NCBI GenBank assembly: GCA_000165345.1
Contig: CM000430.1
Coordinates: 480,001-544,000, forward strand
DNA length: 64,000 nucleotides
Reading direction: 5' to 3'
Shown: piece by piece, positions 1-28,412 of the stretch
How the letters are laid out: each line of letters starts with the position of its first letter
Numbering within the stretch: the stretch's first letter is position 1
Notes under the pieces: generated by a model
Seen by the model: the letters and a program-made list of their open reading frames with translations, nothing else
Database searches by the model: none
What the model was told of the DNA's origin: nothing
Position numbers and translations under genes: made by a program

Positions 1-2373
1 TGGAATTTTGTAAATAGAATTTACTGAATATTTCATAAAAATAGATAATTTTTTGATATTTTTAATTCTAAGGTCAATCTCCAATACACTCAACTGGCTT
101 ATAAATAATTGATTCAAAATAGAACTTCCCCTAATAACTGAAGCTTGACTATGGATATTGATTTGATTTGATATACGACTAAAATTTGCCTGAGCCCAGT
201 TTTCTAAGTCAATCAATAGGTTAGTTGTAGGTTCATGAAATCTGAAAAGGTCTGAATTGAGAAAACCCCAAAGCATCTTCACTATTTTGAGAGTACATTC
301 TGCCCAACAAGATGGTATAAATTCTTCTTTAGAAAACAAATTCGAATTAAATAATAAATCAATTATAATTTTAAGGCATTTGAAAAAGTCTTCAATATGA
401 TAGTTTTCTAATTTTAGAAGTGAGTATTCTGTGAAATCCACTTCAACTAATCGACTGAATAATTTATAGAGCCAAGACGGAATTGGAAACTTTTCAAAAG
501 GGGATAAGTTAGACATGTCCATTTGGGTTAGTAATATTTCATTGAATATTTTAATATTAAATAGTTTAGTTAGAGCTTCATAAAGTAGGTTTCTGAGAGT
601 AATTTTATCTTCAGTAAACACATTTTCATATAAGAAAGTTGAAATGAATCCAATAAATTGTTTAAGTGTTTCAATTGAAGATTCAAGTGTGTCGTTATTA
701 TTAATCTCCTTGAAAGCTCCTAGATTATTTAAAGAAAATATACATAGTTCGGTAAAAATGATCATTTCTTTGTCCTCAGCCTTAAATTCAACCATAATTT
801 TAATTAAAATTATAAACAAATCCATAAAGAAAGATTCTAATGAATTATATTCAGCTTCTTGGTTCAGTAAGAAGTTATCAACGTAAAATAAAATAATTTC
901 TTTCAAGAGTAAGGATGTAGGGCTTGTAATTAAAGATTCATTTGGATCAATAATCACTTTTTCTGTCTTTTTTTTTAAAAGATTAAAAAAAGTTGAATTA
1001 ATTGTGTCTAAAAAAATATTTGGGTTTAAATTAGTTGAATTTATAAGAGATCTGCATTCTTCGATTATAGAATCCTTTAACTCTGGAACCTTTATCGTCA
1101 ATTCTCTAGAATACATAAATATTGGAATCAATATTTTAGGAGCAATAAAATTTACACATTGAACAAATTCTTCAAATAATGCATTAATCATCTTAATAGG
1201 CTCAAGAATAATTGTTTGATTTGCTAAATTATTTGTTTGCTGTAAGCTATGGAGGTTTTTTGAAACCCTAATTGATTGATATTTTGCAAAGCTTGAGCTA
1301 TTTTCAGAAACCGAGAAATAATTGTCTAAGAGTGAAAATGAGAAAATTAACTCCTCAATAATAGCAGCAATTAATGTTTCCACTATTTCATCATCCATTT
1401 TATATTCATTTTTTTTTTCTGGAGAAAAGTATTTATCATTCATAATCCATTGTATCAACCTCCTTGTTAATGACCATTCTCTTATCAAAAAAAGTTTCAG
1501 TGCTTTCCTAAGTAAGTTAACTTTTGATTTATGAGGCAATATTTCTTCAATATGGCTATTATAAAGTTTTAAACTAGTTTGTTGATTAATAGGAACATGA
1601 GAAATTAGGAAATCCAAAAGATATCTTTTAACCAAAATATTTTCATCATCAATACAAGATTCAAGAGCTTTCAAAAAGAGAATACTACAAGGGATAAGAC
1701 TCTGAACTTTCTTCATAGAAATGATTTTATTAGATGTAGAGATAGCTGAGAACCTTGCTAATATCACTTCTAAAGCAGGATACCTAACTTGTGTTGTTCT
1801 CAAAATAACTAGCCATAGGGTGCACATAAAATTTTTTTCTCCAACGCAATTTTTGCTTGATATTGATTGGAATGTCTTCATTATTCTGTCATAGCATTCG
1901 CTTTTCGAATCCTCTAGCCCTGGGAGTAGCCCTACTATTAACCCGGATAAACATGGGAGTAAACCTGGACCTAAAGGCAAAAAATACTGGTCAATTAAGT
2001 CAAGAAAGATGGGCTTAACTTGTGTTGACGAGTGAACAAAAAATGGGAAAAGCCCGGATCCATACAGTGCAAGATCAGAGCTTAATTCATTCTTGCCTAT
2101 TTTCCCAAATATTCCTCCATAAGTCTCTAAAGCTTTAGTATGAACACCGCTAGGTAAAGACGGATTCAAACATTGAGCAAGTCTCTTTGAAATAGTTTCT
2201 TTGAGAGGAACTCCTGGAATATCGCAGAACTCTTTGCTAATACATCTGTTTAATCTTTGTAGGCAATTGCTAAGATCAGCCCATTCCTGTGCTTTTTCAA
2301 AACTTTGAAGGATACTATGAATTTCATTTTCATATTTTTTAAAATCGCTTTTTGGCCAAGAAAAATCGCTCAT
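1..2373 (-). CDS. Dopey/DOP1 family protein, N-terminal part (partial; gene continues beyond window start)
   Basis: Minus-strand ORF starting at the ATG at 2373..2371 and open to position 1. It is absent from the ORF track, presumably because it has no in-window stop. N-terminus MSDFSWPKSDFKKYENEIHSILQSFEKAQEWADLSNCLQRLNRCISKEF matches the conserved Dopey_N opening (KYRNY...ALKNFE...EWADLIS.LGKL.KVL). The rest is leucine-rich helical. No other long ORF is reported in 1..2400. Confidence 0.7.
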   Translation of the reverse strand, partial: MSDFSWPKSDFKKYENEIHSILQSFEKAQEWADLSNCLQRLNRCISKEFCDIPGVPLKETISKRLAQCLNPSLPSGVHTKALETYGGIFGKIGKNELSSDLALYGSGLFPFFVHSSTQVKPIFLDLIDQYFLPLGPGLLPCLSGLIVGLLPGLEDSKSECYDRIMKTFQSISSKNCVGEKNFMCTLWLVILRTTQVRYPALEVILARFSAISTSNKIISMKKVQSLIPCSILFLKALESCIDDENILVKRYLLDFLISHVPINQQTSLKLYNSHIEEILPHKSKVNLLRKALKLFLIREWSLTRRLIQWIMNDKYFSPEKKNEYKMDDEIVETLIAAIIEELIFSFSLLDNYFSVSENSSSFAKYQSIRVSKNLHSLQQTNNLANQTIILEPIKMINALFEEFVQCVNFIAPKILIPIFMYSRELTIKVPELKDSIIEECRSLINSTNLNPNIFLDTINSTFFNLLKKKTEKVIIDPNESLITSPTSLLLKEIILFYVDNFLLNQEAEYNSLESFFMDLFIILIKIMVEFKAEDKEMIIFTELCIFSLNNLGAFKEINNNDTLESSIETLKQFIGFISTFLYENVFTEDKITLRNLLYEALTKLFNIKIFNEILLTQMDMSNLSPFEKFPIPSWLYKLFSRLVEVDFTEYSLLKLENYHIEDFFKCLKIIIDLLFNSNLFSKEEFIPSCWAECTLKIVKMLWGFLNSDLFRFHEPTTNLLIDLENWAQANFSRISNQINIHSQASVIRGSSILNQLFISQLSVLEIDLRIKNIKKLSIFMKYSVNSIYKIP

Positions 2374-3094
2374 GTTTAATTATATAGTCATGAAGCCATT
2401 CCAATCGTTCTTCATGAAGGCCTGTCTCAGATAAATTCTCTTCTTAGAATTAATTTTACCTTGAATAAAATGCCGCAATTAACTTGAGCCTCAGTAAATT
2501 GTAAAAACAATTTCCAACAAAATAATTTTGGTTTTAACAAATGAATACAGCTTATCAATAAGAAATATGTAAACCTTAACAAGAAAATTATTTATATTTC
2601 TTGAGTTATCGAAAATATTAAATCGTGTTTAAATATCAGTTATGAGAATTACACACACAATTCATGATCAAAAAAAATACTTGAATTCATTGTGCATTAA
2701 TAATTTTGTTGACTTCGAGCCTTGCTTCATTAGAGAAATAACTTCTAAGTTGATAAATCAAAAAAAATATGTCAAGGTTTTGGGAATAATAGTCAACATA
2801 AGAAAAAGACCAAAATTTTTAGAGTTGACAAGTGGGTTTAAATAATATTTTCTGATCATAGTTATTTTTTTAATATAGTCGATGATTCTTCAGATATATT
2901 GAGGGCTGTCTTCTGGGGAAGTAGGCCAGAATTCCAAAAGTTAAAGCTTATAAGAAATTTCTACACCAACTCTCTTGTAAGTTTATTGAACGATAGCAAA
3001 ATAGTTAATAGAAATTTTCGCCAAAAAGAACCTTGGAGCTCTTGTAGAAGCACGAGGAATTGTTGAATCTTATAATAATACAGCCCAATTAAAA

Positions 3095-3532
3095 TTGTTT
3101 TGCATAAATAACGTTTATAATTTCAATATGGAATCACTTTGGTGGTTAAACATTTTTGAAAAATTTATTAAAGAAAAAATGAGCATTTCAATTCCTTCAG
3201 ATAATATATTAAATGGAGAGTTAATAAAATCCAGTTCTTTTAATAAAATTGGTCGCTTTGAACTCATTAGTCAATTAAATAATCAATACTTCTCTTGCTT
3301 CTGCAGAAGGTGTCACAAAATAATTAATAATGCAAAGTTGATTCCGAATAATTCTAGATATGAAATTATAAGTAGGATGATTGTATCAGCTTTAAATAGA
3401 TTTAGAGGTTTATTTCGTTGTTCTGAAACTAACAAATTAAACAAGGAAGATATTCAATTTATAATCAATAGAATTTTAATCACCAATTGCGAAATTAATA
3501 ACGTTCTAAGAGAAGTACCTGTAAGTTATTAA
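3095..3532 (+). CDS. hypothetical protein; probably the 3' exon of a spliced gene (candidate exon 2878..2976, intron 2977..3028)
   Basis: 145-aa track ORF (TTG-initiated in the track; first ATG codes MESLWW). The upstream frame-compatible ORF VDDSSDILRAVFWGSRPEFQKLKLIRNFYTNSL ends exactly at a GTAAGT (2977..2982). An AG acceptor at 3027..3028 restores the downstream frame. No ATG was found for the upstream exon, so the model is incomplete. Confidence 0.35.
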   Translation: MFCINNVYNFNMESLWWLNIFEKFIKEKMSISIPSDNILNGELIKSSSFNKIGRFELISQLNNQYFSCFCRRCHKIINNAKLIPNNSRYEIISRMIVSALNRFRGLFRCSETNKLNKEDIQFIINRILITNCEINNVLREVPVSY

Positions 3533-3860
3533 TATAGTTTACGACATTCAATGGACAAATTTCATAAATTAAAACACAATAAATAGATGAGTTGTATTTC
3601 CTGTATATTGAACTCTGTTAAAGAAATTTATATTAAAGAATTTGGATATGAGGTAAGATCTAAGTGAGTTTATTTTTCATTAACATAAAAATTTTAGGAT
3701 TTTAAAATCCCTTCATTTTACTTATGTAATTAAATCAAGTGTGCACGCTTTGCTATAAGTCGAAAGTAAGCGCACCCTGCTCACACAACTCTAATTAAGC
3801 TATTCTGAAATCTTAATAAATAGCTGGTTTTTATCGTTAAAATTTGGATAAAATGCCGAA

Positions 3861-21968: not shown

Positions 21969-24263
21969 TTATGAATATATTCTTTCATTATTTTCTTGAT
22001 TTTTTTTACGCAAATTAATAATTGAAATTCCTGCATATCTTCCTAAACTCATGATTGTATAGACAGGATTAATTCTTGGCAATATTTTTAAAAGAGACGC
22101 ATCAACAATACCTAAGTTTCTTGTGCCTGATAATAAAAACGATTCATTTTCCACAAGCTCTCCCAATGGAACAGATCCTGACCAATGCCAAATACTTGTT
22201 CCTATATTGTAAGCTAATCTTAAAATTTCGTCTTTATTCGAAAGATCTGGAAGTATTGGAGGGAATGTTGCAATTTTCTCAAATATTATGTTTTTGCTTT
22301 CAAGACAATCCCTTGGGTCAGAAACTCCGTTACATTCATCTGGAAATATTGAATTTTTATAATTGAGTATGATGTTATAAACATTTTCAAGCTCATCCAT
22401 AAAATCTGGAGATAGTGGCTTGTTTATAAATAATCTCTCAGTTCTTGCAGATGCAAGCACGCCAATTATGCCATTCAATACTGTCATAGGGCATGAAGAG
22501 TATCCTCCTTGTTCTGCAATATTTTGAAATCTTCCTGACCTTAGCATCTTTATCACAGAACTAAGTCCAATTATTACGTTTTCTCTATCTTCTTCTTCCG
22601 ATAAATATTTCCCATCTAATTCAAATTTTCCATCACTTTTTACACTTATTCCCCCCCTGCTTTTAGGTTCAGATGTAAAATAAAAAACAGCAGCAGATCT
22701 CCTTAGACATTCTAAAGGATACTGTAAAATCAGACAAATTGGTATTCCTCCACTTAATGGGTAATTTTCTGCGCATTTTTTGAATATTTCAATCACAAAA
22801 TCCGTAACAATATTATTCCTAAGTCTTGGAGGGAAAATAAGTCTTGTAGCATATAATGTGCCTTCCACAGTTCTTCCTCCTCCCAAAGACTCGATATTAA
22901 TAGTACTGCAGCTATATCCGCAATTTCCAGAAGTTTTTGAAAAACTTGACATGATTGGGTTTACGAAAGGGTTAGTAAAAACATCACTTTTGAAAAAAAA
23001 TGGAATTGCAAATAACAATCTATCGACGATATTTGTTCCCAAATTTGGAACTTCTAGCAATGGCATTATATTCATATTTTGTAGAGATTCAAGAGGTCCT
23101 ATCCCGGACTTATAAAGTAATACAGGGGTATGGATTGCCCCTGATGATAGTATTATCATTCCATTGTCATTTAAACAAATTCTTTTGGCAAAGATACTTC
23201 GAATTAAGTCTTTAGAAGGTTTTATACCGTCCTCAATACCAAATTCATTGGCCAGTTTTCCTGCAGTTATATTAAAAAATGGGTATTCAAAGTCAGAATA
23301 TTGATTTTTTAACATAACTCTTTCTAAAATAATACATTTTGCATTTAAAACACTTTTACTAGAAAGTGCCGATTGAAAACCCATTTTATTATAATTAAAT
23401 TTTCCTCCTAAATTTGCATTCCTTAAAAATGGAAAACCTGTGCTTTGAGTTTTGTTTCCTCTAATCTCTCTCTGTCCTTCGATTTGTTCAAACTCTACTT
23501 TTGTTACAAGATGGTTTGTTAAAATATCAACAGGACTTGTTTCAATGACCGTATTATTTTTGGCATTTTGATAATCAGAAAGTAAGATATCTGATGACAT
23601 TCTGAAACCGTGGTCACTTACATTAAATAGATTGTATACTCTCCAAGTTCCGTTTATTCTATTTAAGCTGAATTCTGAGTTCGGGTTTTTTTCTGTCACA
23701 AATCCAATATCTTTAAATGCATTCTCCATAGGTTCAACAATTGGGAGATCCTGATCGCCTTTATTACTAACTCTATTTACAATCCAATCATAACTCTCTT
23801 TCAAAATGGTTTTGTTAAAACTAGCTCCTGAATTTTCTTCTAAAAGTTTGAAATATTCTGGATTTTCTTCCATGATCATTCCCATATTTATTGCTGTCCC
23901 ACCTCCTAATACATTTCCAATATGAGTTCTTATTCCCTGTTTAGTAATAACAAGTTCGCTAACTTTTTTGTCATCCACAACACTTCCCATTCCTTTTATA
24001 TCACGAGTAAGTATTGATTCATCTAGCCTAGCACCTCCTCTTTCTACAAGCAAAACAGAGTATTTCGAGTCAGCAAGAGTTCTAGCTAATGCGCATCCTG
24101 CAGCCCCACCCCCAACTACTATATAATCATAGCTAGATTTAATATTCCTCGATCCAGTTATGATTCTTTTAGGTAAAACGAAAGCTCTCGCACTTATTTT
24201 TTCAAAAATACGAAGCGCATTTAGTGAAAATAATAATAAAGTGAAATATAAAATATTTTTCAT
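21969..24263 (-). CDS. secreted GMC-family oxidoreductase (FAD-dependent; choline dehydrogenase/glucose oxidase-like)
   Basis: 764 aa. N-terminal signal peptide MKNILYFTLLLFSLNALRIF. Rossmann FAD motif YDYIVVGGGAAGCALARTLADS. C-terminal GMC_oxred_C signature HWSGSVPLGE....NLGIVDASLLKILPRINP. The oxidoreductase body is uninterrupted. Confidence 0.85.
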   Translation of the reverse strand: MKNILYFTLLLFSLNALRIFEKISARAFVLPKRIITGSRNIKSSYDYIVVGGGAAGCALARTLADSKYSVLLVERGGARLDESILTRDIKGMGSVVDDKKVSELVITKQGIRTHIGNVLGGGTAINMGMIMEENPEYFKLLEENSGASFNKTILKESYDWIVNRVSNKGDQDLPIVEPMENAFKDIGFVTEKNPNSEFSLNRINGTWRVYNLFNVSDHGFRMSSDILLSDYQNAKNNTVIETSPVDILTNHLVTKVEFEQIEGQREIRGNKTQSTGFPFLRNANLGGKFNYNKMGFQSALSSKSVLNAKCIILERVMLKNQYSDFEYPFFNITAGKLANEFGIEDGIKPSKDLIRSIFAKRICLNDNGMIILSSGAIHTPVLLYKSGIGPLESLQNMNIMPLLEVPNLGTNIVDRLLFAIPFFFKSDVFTNPFVNPIMSSFSKTSGNCGYSCSTINIESLGGGRTVEGTLYATRLIFPPRLRNNIVTDFVIEIFKKCAENYPLSGGIPICLILQYPLECLRRSAAVFYFTSEPKSRGGISVKSDGKFELDGKYLSEEEDRENVIIGLSSVIKMLRSGRFQNIAEQGGYSSCPMTVLNGIIGVLASARTERLFINKPLSPDFMDELENVYNIILNYKNSIFPDECNGVSDPRDCLESKNIIFEKIATFPPILPDLSNKDEILRLAYNIGTSIWHWSGSVPLGELVENESFLLSGTRNLGIVDASLLKILPRINPVYTIMSLGRYAGISIINLRKKNQENNERIYS

Positions 24264-24403: not shown

Positions 24404-25184
24404 CTATGTTATTGAAATAATAATAAAAGTTAAAGAAAAAAATATGATACTCATTAAAAATAGTATTGTTGTATGAAAAAATGATATATTTGAATTTTTT
24501 ATAAATTTTTTCATATCTTGGATTGATTTTTGCGTTTTTTCTGAATTTACAGCTTGCTCTTTCTCTAAAATAAATAAGACCTAAAAACTATTATTTTTCT
24601 TTTCAAATTTAAGGAGAAAAACTTACTTTTTTTTCACTTCTAAGTAATTCTTGAAATCTGAATGCAGAGCACTTCATTTCTTCAGCTAGTTCAACCAATT
24701 CATCTTTGAATCGCTCATTTATAACTTTTATATCAAGCCTATTATCAATATTTTCTGGTTTCAAATTATTTTTCGAAGTAGGTGGCAATTCTAAACTATG
24801 CTCTGCAAATTTAGTTGAATTACTTTCAAGATATTCATAAATATTTTTGTTTGGCTTCAAATGTGAATATAAATTTTTGATATTTTGGGGTTGATTTTCA
24901 TCTCCTAATAATTCTAGATTTAGCTTATCTTCCAATTTCAATTTTAATATCTCTATTCTTCCAAGGTAATCATCTTGCAGTTCTTTATTGCCGCTAATTT
25001 GGAGCTTGACAGACTCAAGAGAGTGTAATATCTTTTTGTATGCAATAATATTAATTATGCTTTTGTCAAATGTTACAAGCATTTCTGAACAGTTAGTTCC
25101 GAATGCATATTCTAAAAATTTATCTTCTTCAAGTACACATTCAATATTGTATAATAGTACATTAGACCGGTGCATAATATTCAT
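24404..25184 (-). CDS. tail-anchored coiled-coil protein (SNARE-like), 2 exons
   Basis: Exon 1 is 25184..24627. The intron 24626..24581 (46 nt) runs from GTAAGT (directly after ...RSEKK) to TTTTTAG. Exon 2 is 24580..24404 and encodes VLFILEKEQAVNSEKTQKSIQDMKKFIKNSNISFFHTTILFLMSIIFFSLTFIIISIT, a C-terminal TM anchor. Without splicing the ORF ends at ...KKVSFSP and lacks the anchor. Confidence 0.6.
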
Positions 25185-25417
25185 GATATCTCGGTTACAT
25201 AATAGCCATAGTTTATCAATTTATAGAATATTTAGCAAATATTGTTAATAGGAAACATTTATTCATATATCTAATTTAACCGCCCTAATCAATTTATTTA
25301 AAATAATATTCTAATTTCAAGCAAGAAACTCAATTCCACACCTTTTACATAGTAATGAGGGAAAATTGTGTGTTTTAAGGAAAGAATGCAGGCTCAAGCT
25401 ATTACAAATAGATAGTC

Positions 25418-26140
25418 ATGAAAGTTAAATCAACCTTTATTTTGCTAATTTTTACTCTTAATTATCTCACATCTTATTGTTCATTAAGGAATACTAATGG
25501 TGTAAGTACATAAATAAAAAAATTATTAATTATTTGTAACATTTTATTAGAATGGAAACAAATTAGTTGAAATACTTGAACCAAAGGAAATGAACAACGT
25601 AAGAGATAATTTTCAAAAGTCGAATAATAATTTTGAGCTTTTAGGTAACTTCTGCATTGAGAATCTTTCCTTTTGTTTACTATGGATATATTTCAAGGCT
25701 CAGTTTAAGTAATTTAGATAGCAATATAGTGGAAAGAAGGCTAGAAGAATTATATCCTTTTTTGCAGAAAATAGCCTGCACTGCTTTGAATTGTTTAAGT
25801 ATGTTTAACTAAATTTACACAAATAGTAACACTCAATCTCACAGTGATCTTTAATCCTATTCCCGGCTCAGCTATGACAGTTTCCGCTCTTTCATGTAAG
25901 TGGAATAAATAAAGAAAATAATTTATAATTGCTTTAGGGATTCTTTCATTTTCAACATTGAGCAATAGCGTATTACCTTACTTGTTACAATACGCAACGG
26001 GTCTTCCTCAAGCACTTTACTTTTCTTTGCAAATTTCCGAATTTCAGATAATTACTTCACCTGTCAGCCTAGTTAAAGAGGGAGATGTAAGTCGGAACAC
26101 GTCTTTTTTTTTTCGAATCTAGAACAGAGCTAATAATTGA
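25418..26140 (+). CDS. candidate intron-dense small gene (signal peptide protein, 6 exons), provisional model
   Basis: This 1.3-kb stretch has no ORF of 60 aa or more but holds five consecutive canonical short introns, each restoring frame. Exons: 25418..25501 (MKVKSTFILLIFTLNYLTSYCSLRNTNG), 25551..25598, 25645..25798, 25845..25895, 25938..26086, 26123..26140. Introns: 25502..25550, 25599..25644, 25799..25844, 25896..25937, 26087..26122 (36-49 nt; donors GTAAGT/GTAAGA/GTATGT; acceptors YAG preceded by T-rich tracts and TAAC-like branch motifs). An alternative last acceptor at 26145 would extend the protein through 26316. Confidence 0.35.
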
Positions 26141-26526
26141 TGCAGATATTTGGAAAACTAATTTCCCATAGGGATGGAGATAATGCTATACATGATCTAC
26201 TAGTTTCTCCATGTGATGGCGTTTTGCAATATGTTTGGCCAAATGTTTCAACACCTACTGTTGCTTTCATGCTAATTGCAAGGATTCAATGTAATTTGAA
26301 AATACAAGGATAGTGAGGCAGATTGAAATATCTTAATACTAAATAAATTATAATAGTTTGATAATTATCAAACACGCTTTTTCTAAATTGTTCATATTAC
26401 AAGAAAATGACGTCATCATATTTGATTATTAGATCAAAAGGCGGCTTGAATGCACGCAAAATCCCCACTGAGCGTTTTGATGTTTTCTAAATCAAATTTG
26501 TAGAAATTGAGAGAATTTATGTAAAT

Positions 26527-27555
26527 ATGCAGATTAATTACCTAATTTTTTCTGTATTTTCTGCGTTACTTCTTGGGTTAAATAGTCCAGTATACGCAAT
26601 AACTACTGAGTCAAATGAATATGTTGCTAACACCAAAAGCAAATCTAGAAATAGACTTAGAAGATTTTTGGATAGTTTAAATAAAGTGGAACTCAAGCTT
26701 CCCAAGATAACCAGAAAAAATGTGATTAGTGAATATACTGTTGAGGATTTAGTCTCAAAGTTGCGAGAAATAGAGAAAACAAGAAGTAACACAAAAAATC
26801 CATTCAAGAAAATAAGATGTCTCATTCAAGAGTCAAATATTAAGAAAAAAATCAGTTCATTACTTAAAGAAAAGAGTGAAGAAGAAAAGTTCGAAAAGTT
26901 TGAAGAAGAATTTCCAATGGATTATTCTCCAAAGGCATTATCTGAAGAGGGGTCTATATCGCCCTATATCCCAGTAGTTGTTGAAGACTACAAGGACGTA
27001 GAAGTTGCGTCAGGAGCATCTATTAGAAATGAGGGAATTCAAGACGAGATTAAATATCTGACATCGGAGGATACTGATCAATCGACTAGTGGAGAGTTGG
27101 ATGATTTGGCACATCCAATTACATCAGAAACTGGCAATGAAAATGAAGGCACTGAAGATTCCGTTACGGAAGACTTTGAAAAAAAGGAAGTTGTAGAAGA
27201 CAATTTGGAAGACTATCAAGCCAAAGATGTGGATGGTGAAAGCCAGTCAAACGAGAATGGGCAGCAAACAGATTCAGATCTGCAAGAAAACGCAGATAGA
27301 GGAGAAAAAGACAACATTCAAAGCAAGGCAAGATTAGCGAACATTTTTAAAAGAAAAAAGTTAACTGCTTCCGAAAAGCTTGAAAGATTAATGTCACTTA
27401 AAAAAGATATTGAAAGCAGGATTTCTAGTTCTAAGAGTAAACTCCTTAGAAGAGTTTTGGAAATGAAACTTAAAAGAGTGAATCACAAGATTTCTAAAAT
27501 AACAGATGCGGCTGTAGATACAGTTACTGAATCAGGCGAGATTGACATCGAATAG
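26527..27555 (+). CDS. secreted acidic low-complexity protein (signal peptide; contains an SKSR tetrapeptide)
   Basis: 342 aa. Signal peptide MQINYLIFSVFSALLLGLNSPVYA. Mature part is Glu/Asp/Ser/Lys-rich and includes ...NTKSKSRNRLRR.... Reminiscent of Cryptosporidium SKSR-type secretory proteins, but the family assignment is uncertain. Confidence 0.6.
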   Translation: MQINYLIFSVFSALLLGLNSPVYAITTESNEYVANTKSKSRNRLRRFLDSLNKVELKLPKITRKNVISEYTVEDLVSKLREIEKTRSNTKNPFKKIRCLIQESNIKKKISSLLKEKSEEEKFEKFEEEFPMDYSPKALSEEGSISPYIPVVVEDYKDVEVASGASIRNEGIQDEIKYLTSEDTDQSTSGELDDLAHPITSETGNENEGTEDSVTEDFEKKEVVEDNLEDYQAKDVDGESQSNENGQQTDSDLQENADRGEKDNIQSKARLANIFKRKKLTASEKLERLMSLKKDIESRISSSKSKLLRRVLEMKLKRVNHKISKITDAAVDTVTESGEIDIE

Positions 27556-27908: not shown

Positions 27909-28412
27909 ATGTTTAAACTATTTAGTTGTTTGTGCTGTCAAAATGTTGACTTGAATGAAGAAAGGTAAGTCATATTTGACAGTTTAGATGAATTTATATC
28001 TTTTTTTACAGAATGGACACAAGATTATTCACAAGGTTTCCTTCAACGTATCATCTTAGGACTCTTTTTGACGAATATGTAAGTTTTCCTATTCAACATT
28101 ATATAAAGTAAGTCTAATTATTGGTAGAGCTTAAATGGATCAGATATTTCTGAAGGAAGCGAAGTTGGAGATAATCATGAGTGTCAAAATGAAGATCGTC
28201 TAGAAATGATTGTTGAAGAAGATAATGAATTTTTAGAAGATGGACTTTATGATAGAAATTCTCTAAATGCGAGTAGGAAGGTCACTGAAAAAAGTGAAGT
28301 TGATGTAATGAACATAAACAGCAATAGAAGTTCATTGAACACAAACTCTGGATCTAATACGAATCGATCAAAGCAATCGAAGAGGAATAAAAGGAGGAGC
28401 TACAGGAAGTGA
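27909..28412 (+). CDS. small protein with N-terminal Cys cluster (MFKLFSCLCC) and basic C-terminal tail, 3 exons
   Basis: Exons 27909..27964, 28012..28078, 28128..28412. Introns 27965..28011 (47 nt, GTAAGT..TTTACAG) and 28079..28127 (49 nt, GTAAGT..TTGGTAG). The unspliced frame hits TAA immediately after exon 1. The splice joins the frame to track ORF 28206..28412. C-terminus SKQSKRNKRRSYRK. Confidence 0.5.

What the first reader, a model, noticed from the sequence alone, without database searches (positions are those of the whole stretch)
25200..26520. Apparent 1.3-kb ORF desert that actually contains a run of five canonical micro-introns
No ORF of 60 aa or more exists here. Yet an ATG at 25418 opens a signal-peptide exon that stops exactly at a GTAAGT, and four more donor/acceptor pairs (36-49 nt introns with T-rich tracts and TAAC-like branch sites) each restore an open frame. 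Five frame-restoring splice pairs in series are unlikely by chance. This gives a roughly 170-220 aa protein with a signal peptide and hydrophobic segments. It is the most intron-dense gene in a window where most genes have no introns or one. The 3' end is ambiguous: an acceptor at 26122 gives ...NRANN stop, while an acceptor at 26145 extends through 26316.
Basis: seen in the sequence. Interest (0 to 1): 0.6.

Follow-up and report, generated by a model that had tools for sequence, protein, structure and literature searches.

The report
Six-exon Cryptosporidium gene, already annotated
The apparent gene-free gap is a real, already catalogued Cryptosporidium parvum gene. Five tiny introns split it into six exons, and it encodes a 217-residue protein of unknown function found only in this parasite genus.

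Summary
The window is Cryptosporidium parvum chromosome 2. An ATG at 25418 opens a six-exon gene ending at the TAG at 26311-26313. Its five GT-AG introns are 25502-25550, 25599-25644, 25799-25844, 25896-25937 and 26087-26145 (49, 46, 46, 42 and 59 nt).

The spliced 217-aa product is identical to a protein already deposited for at least four C. parvum assemblies (e.g. QOY42980.1, CPATCC_0028280). All deposits call it "uncharacterized".

Four lines of evidence support the model:
- A C. parvum transcript contig joins 26086 to 26146 exactly. This settles the 3' ambiguity in favour of the 26145 acceptor.
- A transcript contig from a sister species lacks introns 1, 3, 4 and 5.
- Eight Cryptosporidium species, including the gastric C. 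andersoni, keep all five intron positions. Exons 3, 4 and 5 are invariant at 154, 51 and 149 nt, and substitutions are biased to third codon positions.
- None of 300 shuffles reached 217 aa.

The protein has a signal-peptide-like N-terminus, an invariant NVT sequon, four invariant cysteines and no convincing transmembrane helix. It has no Pfam match, and no homologues were found outside the genus. A low-confidence model hints at a lipoyl/biotinyl-like beta-barrel at the C-terminus.

Verdict: a real gene, already known, of modest interest.

The parts
25185..25417 (.). 233-nt divergent intergenic region, holding the promoters and 5' UTRs shared with the Use1-like gene on the minus strand. It contains blocks conserved in four species: AATTCCACACCTTTTACA at 25332-25349 and GAGGGAAAATTG at 25357-25368.
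   Evidence: The role of the conserved blocks was not tested.
25418..25501 (+). Exon 1 (84 nt, 28 codons). It encodes the ATG and the signal-peptide-like segment MKVKSTFILLIFTLNYLTSYC|SLRNTNG.
   Evidence: The ATG column is conserved in the seven species of the DNA alignment.
25502..25550 (+). Intron 1 (49 nt, phase 0). It runs GTAAGT...TTATTAG and has a TGTAAC branch-like motif.
   Evidence: It is absent from the sister-species transcript L011.
25551..25598 (+). Exon 2 (48 nt).
   Evidence: It is 48 or 45 nt in the other species. It is also 48 nt in C. andersoni under the GTTAGT intron-1 model derived by hand from the sequence and matched by the annotated C. serpentis protein; the automated model for that species picked other intron-1 boundaries (exon 2 = 29 nt).
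25599..25644 (+). Intron 2 (46 nt, phase 0). It runs GTAAGA...TTTTAG.
   Evidence: The position is conserved in 8 species. It is retained in transcript contig L011, so I obtained no direct splice evidence. It is part of the deposited model.
25645..25798 (+). Exon 3 (154 nt). It encodes the invariant NVT sequon, the PF.YYGYI.RLS motif and the C89/C94 pair.
   Evidence: It is 154 nt in all 8 species.
25799..25844 (+). Intron 3 (46 nt, phase 1). It runs GTATGT...CACAG and has an AGTAAC branch-like motif.
   Evidence: It is absent from L011.
25845..25895 (+). Exon 4 (51 nt).
   Evidence: It is 51 nt in all 8 species.
25896..25937 (+). Intron 4 (42 nt, phase 1). It runs GTAAGT...CTTTAG.
   Evidence: It is absent from L011 but retained in the C. 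parvum transcript contig L012.
25938..26086 (+). Exon 5 (149 nt).
   Evidence: It is 149 nt in all 8 species.
26087..26145 (+). Intron 5 (59 nt, phase 0). It runs GTAAGT...GATGCAG with a T-run and a GCTAAT motif. It contains the unused alternative acceptor at 26122.
   Evidence: L012 matches window 25867-26086 and 26146-26467 at 100% identity with nothing in between. The intron is also absent from L011.
26146..26313 (+). Exon 6 (165 nt plus the TAG stop). It encodes the most conserved stretch, SPCDGVLQYVWPNVSTPTVAFMLIARIQC.
26314..26467 (+). 3' UTR, at least this long. It runs into the upstream region of the next gene, whose ATG is at 26527.
   Evidence: Transcript contig L012 extends to 26467.

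Best explanation
Window 25418-26313 (+) is a genuine spliceosomal, six-exon protein-coding gene of Cryptosporidium parvum chromosome 2. It lies between the Use1-like SNARE gene (cgd2_2520) and cgd2_2530. The ORF desert arises because five short GT-AG introns (49, 46, 46, 42 and 59 nt; phases 0, 0, 1, 1, 0) cut a 654-nt CDS into exons of 48-168 nt.

Shown: the gene structure, its conservation, and its coding nature under purifying selection. The mRNA encodes a 217-aa protein that is conserved across the genus and was not detected outside it.

Inferred: the product enters the secretory pathway through a cleavable N-terminal signal peptide (predicted cut near C21|S22). It is probably N-glycosylated at the invariant N44-V-T sequon and disulfide-bonded through the four invariant cysteines (89, 94, 185, 211). 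It acts as a soluble lumenal or secreted protein. Its C-terminal ~70 residues probably fold as a lipoyl/biotinyl-like beta-barrel that serves as a binding module rather than a cofactor carrier. Its biochemical role remains unknown.
For: Identity. The spliced model equals deposited proteins KAL5370046.1, QOY42980.1, WKS76549.1 and WRK31042.1. The gene is called at exactly this span in CP029781.1.

Transcripts. ENA contig L012 is 100% identical to C. parvum and lacks 26087-26145. Logan contig L011 comes from a related Cryptosporidium and lacks introns 1, 3, 4 and 5. It translates colinearly once its retained intron 2 is removed.

Comparative. In 8 species all five intron positions are kept. Exons 3, 4 and 5 are 154, 51 and 149 nt everywhere, while introns vary from 39 to 77 nt. 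Introns have lower GC than exons. Differences by codon position are 2/4/17 (C. meleagridis), 7/12/37 (C. ubiquitum) and 49/36/71 (C. andersoni).

Null test. 0 of 300 shuffles reach 217 aa, and the minus strand gives 46 aa.

Protein features. There are 72 invariant columns among 9 full-length orthologues, including NNVT and 4 Cys. The N-terminus has an n-h-c signal-peptide layout, and no 19-residue window reaches Kyte-Doolittle 1.6 in C. parvum.

Literature. An RNA-seq-based re-annotation found that C. parvum genes with introns have 2-10 exons (PMC4637869).
Against: Function is not established.
- There is no Pfam hit.
- The PDB sequence search gave no hit better than E = 0.4.
- No homologue outside Cryptosporidium appeared among 1.84 billion representatives, in the 5.8-billion-protein word-seeded search, or in JGI metagenome contigs.
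- Both AF2 models have low confidence: mean pLDDT 38, and only about 58 over residues 150-190. The fold matches are therefore suggestive only. All Foldseek E-values are above 0.1, and the hhalign probability is 4.5%.
- No lysine is conserved at the hairpin where lipoyl and biotinyl domains carry their cofactor.
- The signal peptide was judged by hand, because no dedicated predictor was available.

Gaps in the splicing evidence:
- I obtained no direct transcript evidence for splicing of intron 2.
- Each of the two transcript contigs retains one intron.
- The first ~40 nt of L011 are not in frame with an ATG.
Confidence: 0.9

Rival explanations
1. There is no gene. The five frame-restoring GT...AG pairs are a chance pattern in AT-rich intergenic DNA.
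For: With loose splice rules, thousands of alternative chains exist and many keep an open frame to 26313. Frame restoration on its own is therefore weak evidence.
Against: Spliced transcript contigs exist. Exon lengths are invariant and substitutions favour third codon positions in 8 species. None of 300 shuffles reached 217 aa under strict rules. The model is identical to a deposited, evidence-based annotation.
Confidence: 0.01
2. The locus is transcribed and spliced but non-coding: a spliced lncRNA or a decaying pseudogene.
For: Both recovered transcript contigs retain one intron. No protein-level evidence was available to me, and there is no known domain.
Against: 72 residues are invariant across the deepest split of the genus. 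Exons 3-5 carry no indels, while introns vary freely in length. Third-position bias is strong. No orthologue has an in-frame stop in the spliced frame.
Confidence: 0.02
3. The main product uses the acceptor at 26122. This would give a 167-aa protein ending ...KEGDNRANN and lacking exon 6.
For: An AG with an upstream T-run exists at 26121-26122 and gives an in-frame stop after 5 codons. C. meleagridis and chipmunk genotype I also have an AG there.
Against: The C. parvum transcript contig uses 26145. That AG is missing in C. ubiquitum and the more distant species. Exon 6 encodes the most conserved segment of the protein, with 20 invariant columns between residues 181 and 211.
Confidence: 0.03
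4. The product is an integral membrane protein, with a signal anchor and/or a helical hairpin at about residues 103-146, rather than a soluble lumenal or secreted protein.
For: Moderately hydrophobic, Ser/Thr-rich segments occur at about 80-98, 111-129 and 188-206. One C. andersoni window reaches Kyte-Doolittle 1.6. AF2 predicts helices in parts of residues 108-131.
Against: No C. parvum window exceeds 1.36, against the usual threshold of 1.6. The segment at 188-206 is predicted as beta-strand within the barrel-like domain. The conserved sequon and cysteines on both sides of the putative hairpin fit a single lumenal topology better.
Confidence: 0.2
5. The protein is a highly diverged orthologue of a widespread family, for example a NifU/Nfu-like domain or phosphatidylserine decarboxylase. 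It would then not be genus-specific.
For: The best PDB sequence hit is rice NifU1 domain 2, 1th5_A, at E = 0.4 over 41 residues. The 'SPCDG' motif resembles the PSD 'SPADG' motif (from memory). Five conserved introns in an intron-poor genome suggest an old gene (inference).
Against: hhalign against an Nfu alignment gives 1.8% probability. No other Nfu structure was hit. No Pfam NifU or PS_Dcarbxylase match appeared even at E <= 10. There is no LGST-type cleavage motif, and the protein ends 30 residues after SPCDG. The profile search of 1.84 billion proteins found only Cryptosporidium.
Confidence: 0.06

Closest known systems
Annotated Cryptosporidium orthogroup: C. parvum CPATCC_0028280 / CPHLJ_2g2525 (QOY42980.1, KAL5370046.1), C. 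hominis CUV04609.1, C. tyzzeri CTYZ_00002499, C. meleagridis cmbei_2002523, C. serpentis ACR3K2_31420
   Same: The C. parvum entries have the identical 217-aa sequence and the same gene span. Identity to the window's protein is 98% (C. tyzzeri), 97% (C. hominis), 92% (C. meleagridis), 82% (chipmunk genotype I) and 44% (C. serpentis and C. andersoni). The locus is syntenic, lying between Use1 and the cgd2_2530 orthologue.
   Different: Nothing differs for C. parvum. Several deposited orthologue models are incomplete compared with the conserved six-exon structure. C. ubiquitum is split into 102-aa and 123-aa genes. C. felis has 130 aa. C. xiaoi and C. ryanae skip exon 5 (190 and 187 aa). C. meleagridis UKMEL1 has 176 aa. 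The gene is absent from the 2004 Iowa II protein set, which has only the two neighbours.
Other intron-containing C. parvum genes as described by RNA-seq re-annotation (Isaza et al. 2015, PMC4637869)
   Same: It has GT-AG spliceosomal introns with low GC (0.24 here, against 22% genome-wide). Its exon number falls within the published range of 2-10 exons.
   Different: Six exons exceeds the published mean of 2.6 exons for intron-containing genes. The introns (42-59 nt) are shorter than the published mean of 99 nt. They are similar to the 46-49 nt introns of the neighbouring genes.
Biotinyl/lipoyl 'barrel-sandwich hybrid' domains (BCCP, E2 lipoyl domains, GcvH, aspartoacylase C-terminal domain)
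   Different: No lysine is conserved at the hairpin tip, there is no Pfam PF00364 match, and the protein is apparently secretory. The resemblance rests on a low-confidence model. It is a likeness in fold at most, not family membership.

Membership tests
Spliceosomal multi-exon protein-coding gene (annotated CPATCC_0028280 orthogroup) | The spliced product is identical to the deposited protein, and the gene is called at the same coordinates. | tested here: met
   The exact-sequence look-up found the 217-aa model under four C. parvum accessions. The called gene at L002 3892-4787 equals window 25418-26313.
Spliceosomal multi-exon protein-coding gene (annotated CPATCC_0028280 orthogroup) | GT-AG boundaries are present and the reading frame is restored at every junction. 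| tested here: met
   The donors are GTAAGT, GTAAGA, GTATGT, GTAAGT and GTAAGT, and all acceptors end in AG.
Spliceosomal multi-exon protein-coding gene (annotated CPATCC_0028280 orthogroup) | Transcripts lack the introns. | tested here: met
   Intron 5 is removed in C. parvum contig L012. Introns 1, 3, 4 and 5 are removed in sister-species contig L011. I found no direct evidence for intron 2.
Spliceosomal multi-exon protein-coding gene (annotated CPATCC_0028280 orthogroup) | Purifying selection acts on the spliced frame, and intron positions are conserved. | tested here: met
   In 8 species, exons 3-5 have invariant lengths and introns vary from 39 to 77 nt. Differences favour third codon positions.
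Classical secretory protein (cleavable signal peptide) | An N-terminal basic n-region, a 7-15-residue hydrophobic h-region, and small residues at -3 and -1. | tested here: inconclusive
   The sequence reads MKVK / STFILLIFTLNYL / TS-Y-C|S, with a Kyte-Doolittle 19-residue maximum of 1.34 at residues 5-23. A similar hydrophobic N-terminus occurs in all orthologues. I judged this by rule of thumb, because no SignalP-type predictor was available.
Integral membrane protein | At least one internal segment of about 19 residues with mean Kyte-Doolittle hydropathy of 1.6 or more. | tested here: not met
   The C. parvum internal maxima are 1.36, 1.17 and 1.09. Only one C. andersoni window reaches 1.6.
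Biotinyl/lipoyl domain (Pfam PF00364) | A significant profile match to the family. | tested here: not met
   No Pfam hit appeared at E <= 10 for any of 9 orthologues. hhalign against a small biotinyl/lipoyl alignment gave 4.5% probability and P = 0.009.
Biotinyl/lipoyl domain (Pfam PF00364) | A conserved modifiable lysine at the tip of the beta-hairpin (the (A/E)MKM or DKA motif). | tested here: not met
   The corresponding segment, residues 167-180, is variable and has no invariant Lys.
Biotinyl/lipoyl domain (Pfam PF00364) | A flattened beta-barrel (barrel-sandwich hybrid) fold. | tested here: inconclusive
NifU/Nfu C-terminal domain (Pfam PF01106) | A profile match and the CxxC cluster-binding motif. 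| tested here: not met
   The only hit was 1th5_A at E = 0.4. hhalign gave 1.8% probability. There is no CxxC motif; the conserved pair is CxxxxC.
Phosphatidylserine decarboxylase (Pfam PF02666) | A profile match and the (L)GS(T/S) self-cleavage motif downstream of the SPxDG-like motif. | tested here: not met
   There is no Pfam hit. The protein ends about 30 residues after SPCDG and has no GST/GSS motif.

The most novel reading that the evidence does not exclude
The protein is a genus-wide, strongly constrained component of the Cryptosporidium secretory pathway or of a secreted complex, built around a cofactor-less lipoyl-like beta-barrel. Its unusual retention of five evenly spaced introns in an intron-poor genome might reflect regulation by intron retention, since each recovered transcript contig keeps one intron. 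Alternatively, it may be an ancient eukaryotic gene that has diverged beyond sequence recognition.
Probability: 0.15. Interest if true: 0.4.

Novelty: already known. Interest (0 to 1): 0.2.

Why it matters
It matters mainly as a check on method: a reader working from raw sequence correctly recovered a six-exon gene that ORF scanning misses and that the 2004 reference annotation lacked.

There are three practical points:
- The conserved six-exon structure shows that the deposited models in C. ubiquitum, C. felis, C. xiaoi, C. ryanae and one C. meleagridis assembly are truncated, split or mis-spliced.
- The product is a well-conserved, genus-restricted protein that probably enters the secretory pathway in an important diarrhoeal pathogen. 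That makes it a reasonable candidate for tagging or knock-out, although nothing yet links it to virulence.
- The locus is a compact test case for splice-site and intron-retention studies in Cryptosporidium.

Tried and rejected
- Unrestricted enumeration of GT..AG chains timed out. I replaced it with a donor-restricted search and a search guided by the DNA alignment.
- Pfam scans of the protein and of 9 orthologues found nothing.
- The PDB sequence-profile search gave only E >= 0.4.
- NifU-like idea: rejected by hhalign at 1.8% probability.
- PSD idea, prompted by the SPCDG motif: rejected, because there is no Pfam hit, no cleavage motif and the protein is too short.
- Biotinyl/lipoyl membership: rejected. 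There is no lysine and no profile match. A fold-level resemblance remains possible.
- Two AF2 runs with 10 and 13 sequences gave pLDDT 37.6 and 38.2.
- The afdb50 fold library was unavailable.
- The profile search of 1.84 billion representatives gave one non-Cryptosporidium hit, P0024 at E = 3.7e-4. It is a repeat protein without the family's motifs, and I judged it spurious.
- The JGI metagenome scan with two conserved peptides found no relatives.
- The C. serpentis synteny locus ended at a contig edge and did not reach the gene. Its orthologue was later found by profile search.
- Literature searches for the locus tags (cgd2_2523/2525, CPATCC_0028280 and others) found no paper, and they are not in the Isaza 2015 supplement.
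- Rfam and tRNA scans of the whole window found nothing.
Full report
**Origin of the window.** Exact look-ups of the two flanking ORF products placed the window on a 992-kb chromosome of Cryptosporidium parvum (CP029781.1, assembly GCA_031892065.1). Window coordinate equals locus L002 coordinate plus 21526. The flanking proteins carry the names of C. parvum Iowa II hypothetical proteins: EAK88748 (191 aa) and EAK88749 (342 aa). The composition of about 30% GC and the dense packing of long ORFs fit this genome.

**Checking the observation.** Between 25200 and 26520 no ORF of 60 aa or more lies inside the interval. The longest are 58 aa (+) and 56 aa (-), and an 86-aa TTG ORF only clips the left edge. 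The ATG at 25418 follows an in-frame stop two codons upstream. It opens 28 codons that end exactly before a GTAAGT at 25502.

I enumerated splice chains with a restricted donor set. The most canonical full-length chain has these introns:
- 25502-25550 (49 nt)
- 25599-25644 (46 nt)
- 25799-25844 (46 nt)
- 25896-25937 (42 nt)
- 26087-26145 (59 nt)

This chain gives 217 aa and ends at the TAG at 26311-26313.

Under a strict rule (donor GTA[AT]G[TA], intron 35-62 nt, at most five introns) the + strand yields 217 aa and the - strand yields 46 aa. Three hundred dinucleotide-preserving shuffles gave a mean of 46 aa and a maximum of 162 aa. The same heuristic, applied to the other ORF-poor stretches of the window, recovered the annotated two-intron 135-aa neighbour at 27909-28412. 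It found no other chain with more than two introns.

**The gene is already annotated.** In CP029781.1 a gene is called at L002 3892-4787, which is window 25418-26313, with a 217-residue product. An exact-sequence look-up showed that my 217-aa model is identical to the following:
- KAL5370046.1
- QOY42980.1 (CPATCC_0028280)
- WKS76549.1
- WRK31042.1
- the entry named CPHLJ_2g2525

All are described as 'uncharacterized' or 'hypothetical'. Orthologues of 217 aa are deposited for C. hominis, C. tyzzeri and C. meleagridis.

The 2004 Iowa II protein set has only the two neighbours. RNA-seq-based re-annotations later added genes and introns. Isaza et al. 2015 reported 74 new genes, introns in 10.8% of genes, 2-10 exons per intron-containing gene (mean 2.6) and a mean intron length of 99 bp (PMC4637869). 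A 2021 preprint reports more than 1,500 evidence-based updates, including introns. No paper mentions the locus tags I tried.

**Transcript evidence.** Two short products in the protein collection could only come from spliced RNA, so I fetched their contigs.
- ENA contig L012 (ERZ21845938, 542 nt) matches window 25867-26086 and 26146-26467 at 100% identity with nothing in between. Intron 5 has been removed at exactly the 26145 acceptor. Intron 4 is still present, and the transcript extends at least 154 nt past the stop.
- Logan contig L011 (SRR31831731, 2219 nt) comes from a related Cryptosporidium, closest to C. ubiquitum at about 85% identity. It lacks introns 1, 3, 4 and 5 and retains intron 2 (44 nt). 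After that intron is removed it translates colinearly with the six-exon protein from the end of the signal peptide to the stop. Its first ~40 nt are not in frame with an ATG, which I cannot explain beyond low-coverage error.

I therefore have direct evidence for four of the five junctions. The evidence for intron 2 is indirect: comparison across species, and its inclusion in the deposited model.

**Comparative evidence.** I fetched the syntenic locus from C. meleagridis, chipmunk genotype I, C. ubiquitum, C. felis, C. xiaoi and C. ryanae. For the gastric species C. andersoni I reached the locus through the neighbouring GMC oxidoreductase.
- All five intron positions are conserved, with GT...AG boundaries.
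- Exons 3, 4 and 5 are 154, 51 and 149 nt in all eight species.
- Introns range from 39 to 77 nt and have lower GC than exons.
- In exons 3-5 the differences from C. parvum by codon position are 2/4/17 (C. meleagridis), 6/7/29 (chipmunk genotype I), 7/12/37 (C. ubiquitum) and 49/36/71 (C. andersoni). This pattern is the signature of purifying selection on the spliced frame.

The AG at 26122 is absent in C. ubiquitum and the more distant species. Exon 6 is the best-conserved part of the protein.

Measured against the conserved structure, several deposited models are incomplete:
- C. ubiquitum is split into 102-aa and 123-aa genes.
- C. felis has 130 aa.
- C. xiaoi and C. ryanae skip exon 5.
- C. 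meleagridis UKMEL1 has 176 aa.

**The protein.** Nine full-length orthologues share 72 invariant columns. These include:
- N43-N44-V45-T46, an N-glycosylation sequon
- PF.YYGYI.RLS
- YPFL
- C89 and C94
- the block S183-x-C185-x-GVLQY-x-WPN...P199...FML-x-AR-x-QC211

The N-terminus (MKVK-STFILLIFTLNYL-TSYC|S) has the layout of a cleavable signal peptide. No internal 19-residue window in C. parvum exceeds Kyte-Doolittle 1.36. I therefore favour a soluble lumenal or secreted protein over a membrane protein, although I had no dedicated predictor.

There is no Pfam match, even at E <= 10. Profile searches found only Cryptosporidium proteins, and a JGI metagenome scan found no relatives.

**Fold leads.** A weak PDB hit to a rice NifU-like domain (E = 0.4) did not survive profile-profile comparison, which gave 1.8% probability.

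The C-terminal motif V-K-E-G-D...S-P-C-D-G-V-L reminded me of biotinyl/lipoyl domains and of phosphatidylserine decarboxylase. Against a small biotinyl/lipoyl alignment, hhalign found the expected register but only 4.5% probability.

I read this as a moderate hint of a lipoyl-like beta-barrel. The family-defining lysine and a profile match are both absent, so the protein is not a member of that family and cannot be a swinging-arm cofactor carrier.

**Surroundings.**
- The gene is transcribed divergently from a Use1-like SNARE gene, 233 nt away. That gene (25184-24404, minus strand) has a 46-nt intron at 24626-24581. Splicing it restores the C-terminal membrane anchor that the old 191-aa model lacks.
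- The downstream 135-aa gene has two introns of 47 and 49 nt.
- Short introns of 42-59 nt are therefore typical of this neighbourhood. What is unusual is having five of them in a 654-nt CDS.
- No Rfam family or tRNA lies anywhere in the window.

**Verdict.** The feature is a real six-exon gene that is already in the public annotation, so it is not novel. This analysis adds four things:
- direct junction evidence that resolves the 3' end
- proof that the five introns are conserved across the genus
- identification of faulty orthologue models
- a tentative structural description of an otherwise uncharacterised, genus-restricted protein that probably enters the secretory pathway

Interest is low to modest (0.2).

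Noticed in passing
window 24404-25184 (-): The neighbouring Use1-like SNARE gene has a 46-nt intron (donor GTAAGT at 24626, acceptor end at 24581) near its 3' end. The spliced 244-aa product matches Pfam Use1 (E = 1.8e-5) and ends in a hydrophobic tail anchor. The original 191-aa Iowa II model (EAK88748) stops inside the intron.
   Followed up: yes
window 27909-28412 (+): Another small gene is hidden in an ORF-poor stretch. It encodes 135 aa and has two introns, 27965-28011 (47 nt) and 28079-28127 (49 nt). The model matches the length and span of the gene called in CP029781.1. The product is Ser/Asn/Glu-rich and has no Pfam hit on record.
   Followed up: partly
L007 1042-1920 (C. ubiquitum); L008 1501-1937 (C. 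felis); L009 1501-2501 (C. xiaoi); L010 1501-2496 (C. ryanae): The deposited orthologue models are split, truncated or skip exon 5. Re-splicing at the conserved positions gives full-length proteins of 213, 220, 229 and 230 aa.
   Followed up: yes
L012 1-542 and L011 1-720: Each of the two transcript-derived contigs retains exactly one intron: intron 4 in C. parvum and intron 2 in the sister species. In C. ubiquitum and C. felis intron 4 is 39 and 45 nt long and has no stop, so retention there would stay in frame. The deposited C. ubiquitum and C. felis models read straight through it. This may reflect incomplete or regulated splicing.
   Followed up: partly
window 25332-25368: Two upstream blocks, AATTCCACACCTTTTACA and GAGGGAAAATTG, lie 50-85 nt before the ATG. 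They are conserved in C. parvum, C. meleagridis, chipmunk genotype I and C. ubiquitum, although they sit in the divergent intergenic region. They may be a promoter or 5' UTR element.
   Followed up: no
window 26314-26526: The 3' UTR of this gene reaches at least 26467, only 60 nt before the ATG of the next gene (26527). It contains a TGACGTCA palindrome at 26408-26415 and an AAAGGCGGC motif. The sister-species contig L011 runs continuously through both genes. Transcription units here seem to abut or overlap.
   Followed up: no
window 1-3860: This is the largest stretch of the window without an ORF of 150 aa or more. The strict splice-chain heuristic gives only modest candidates: 165 aa from 3128 with two introns, and 154 aa from 644 with one intron. 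I did not check them against annotation.
   Followed up: no
L013 8001-11284 (C. andersoni) and L014 951-4255 (C. serpentis), compared with window 21969-24263: The GMC-oxidoreductase neighbour has 987-988 aa in the gastric species. Its gene span exceeds the CDS by about 320 nt, which implies introns. In C. parvum it has 764 aa and is intronless.
   Followed up: no
L011 1-45: The 5' end of the sister-species transcript contig is out of frame with any ATG, relative to the conserved signal-peptide exon. The cause may be an indel or assembly error, or a different start in that species.
   Followed up: no
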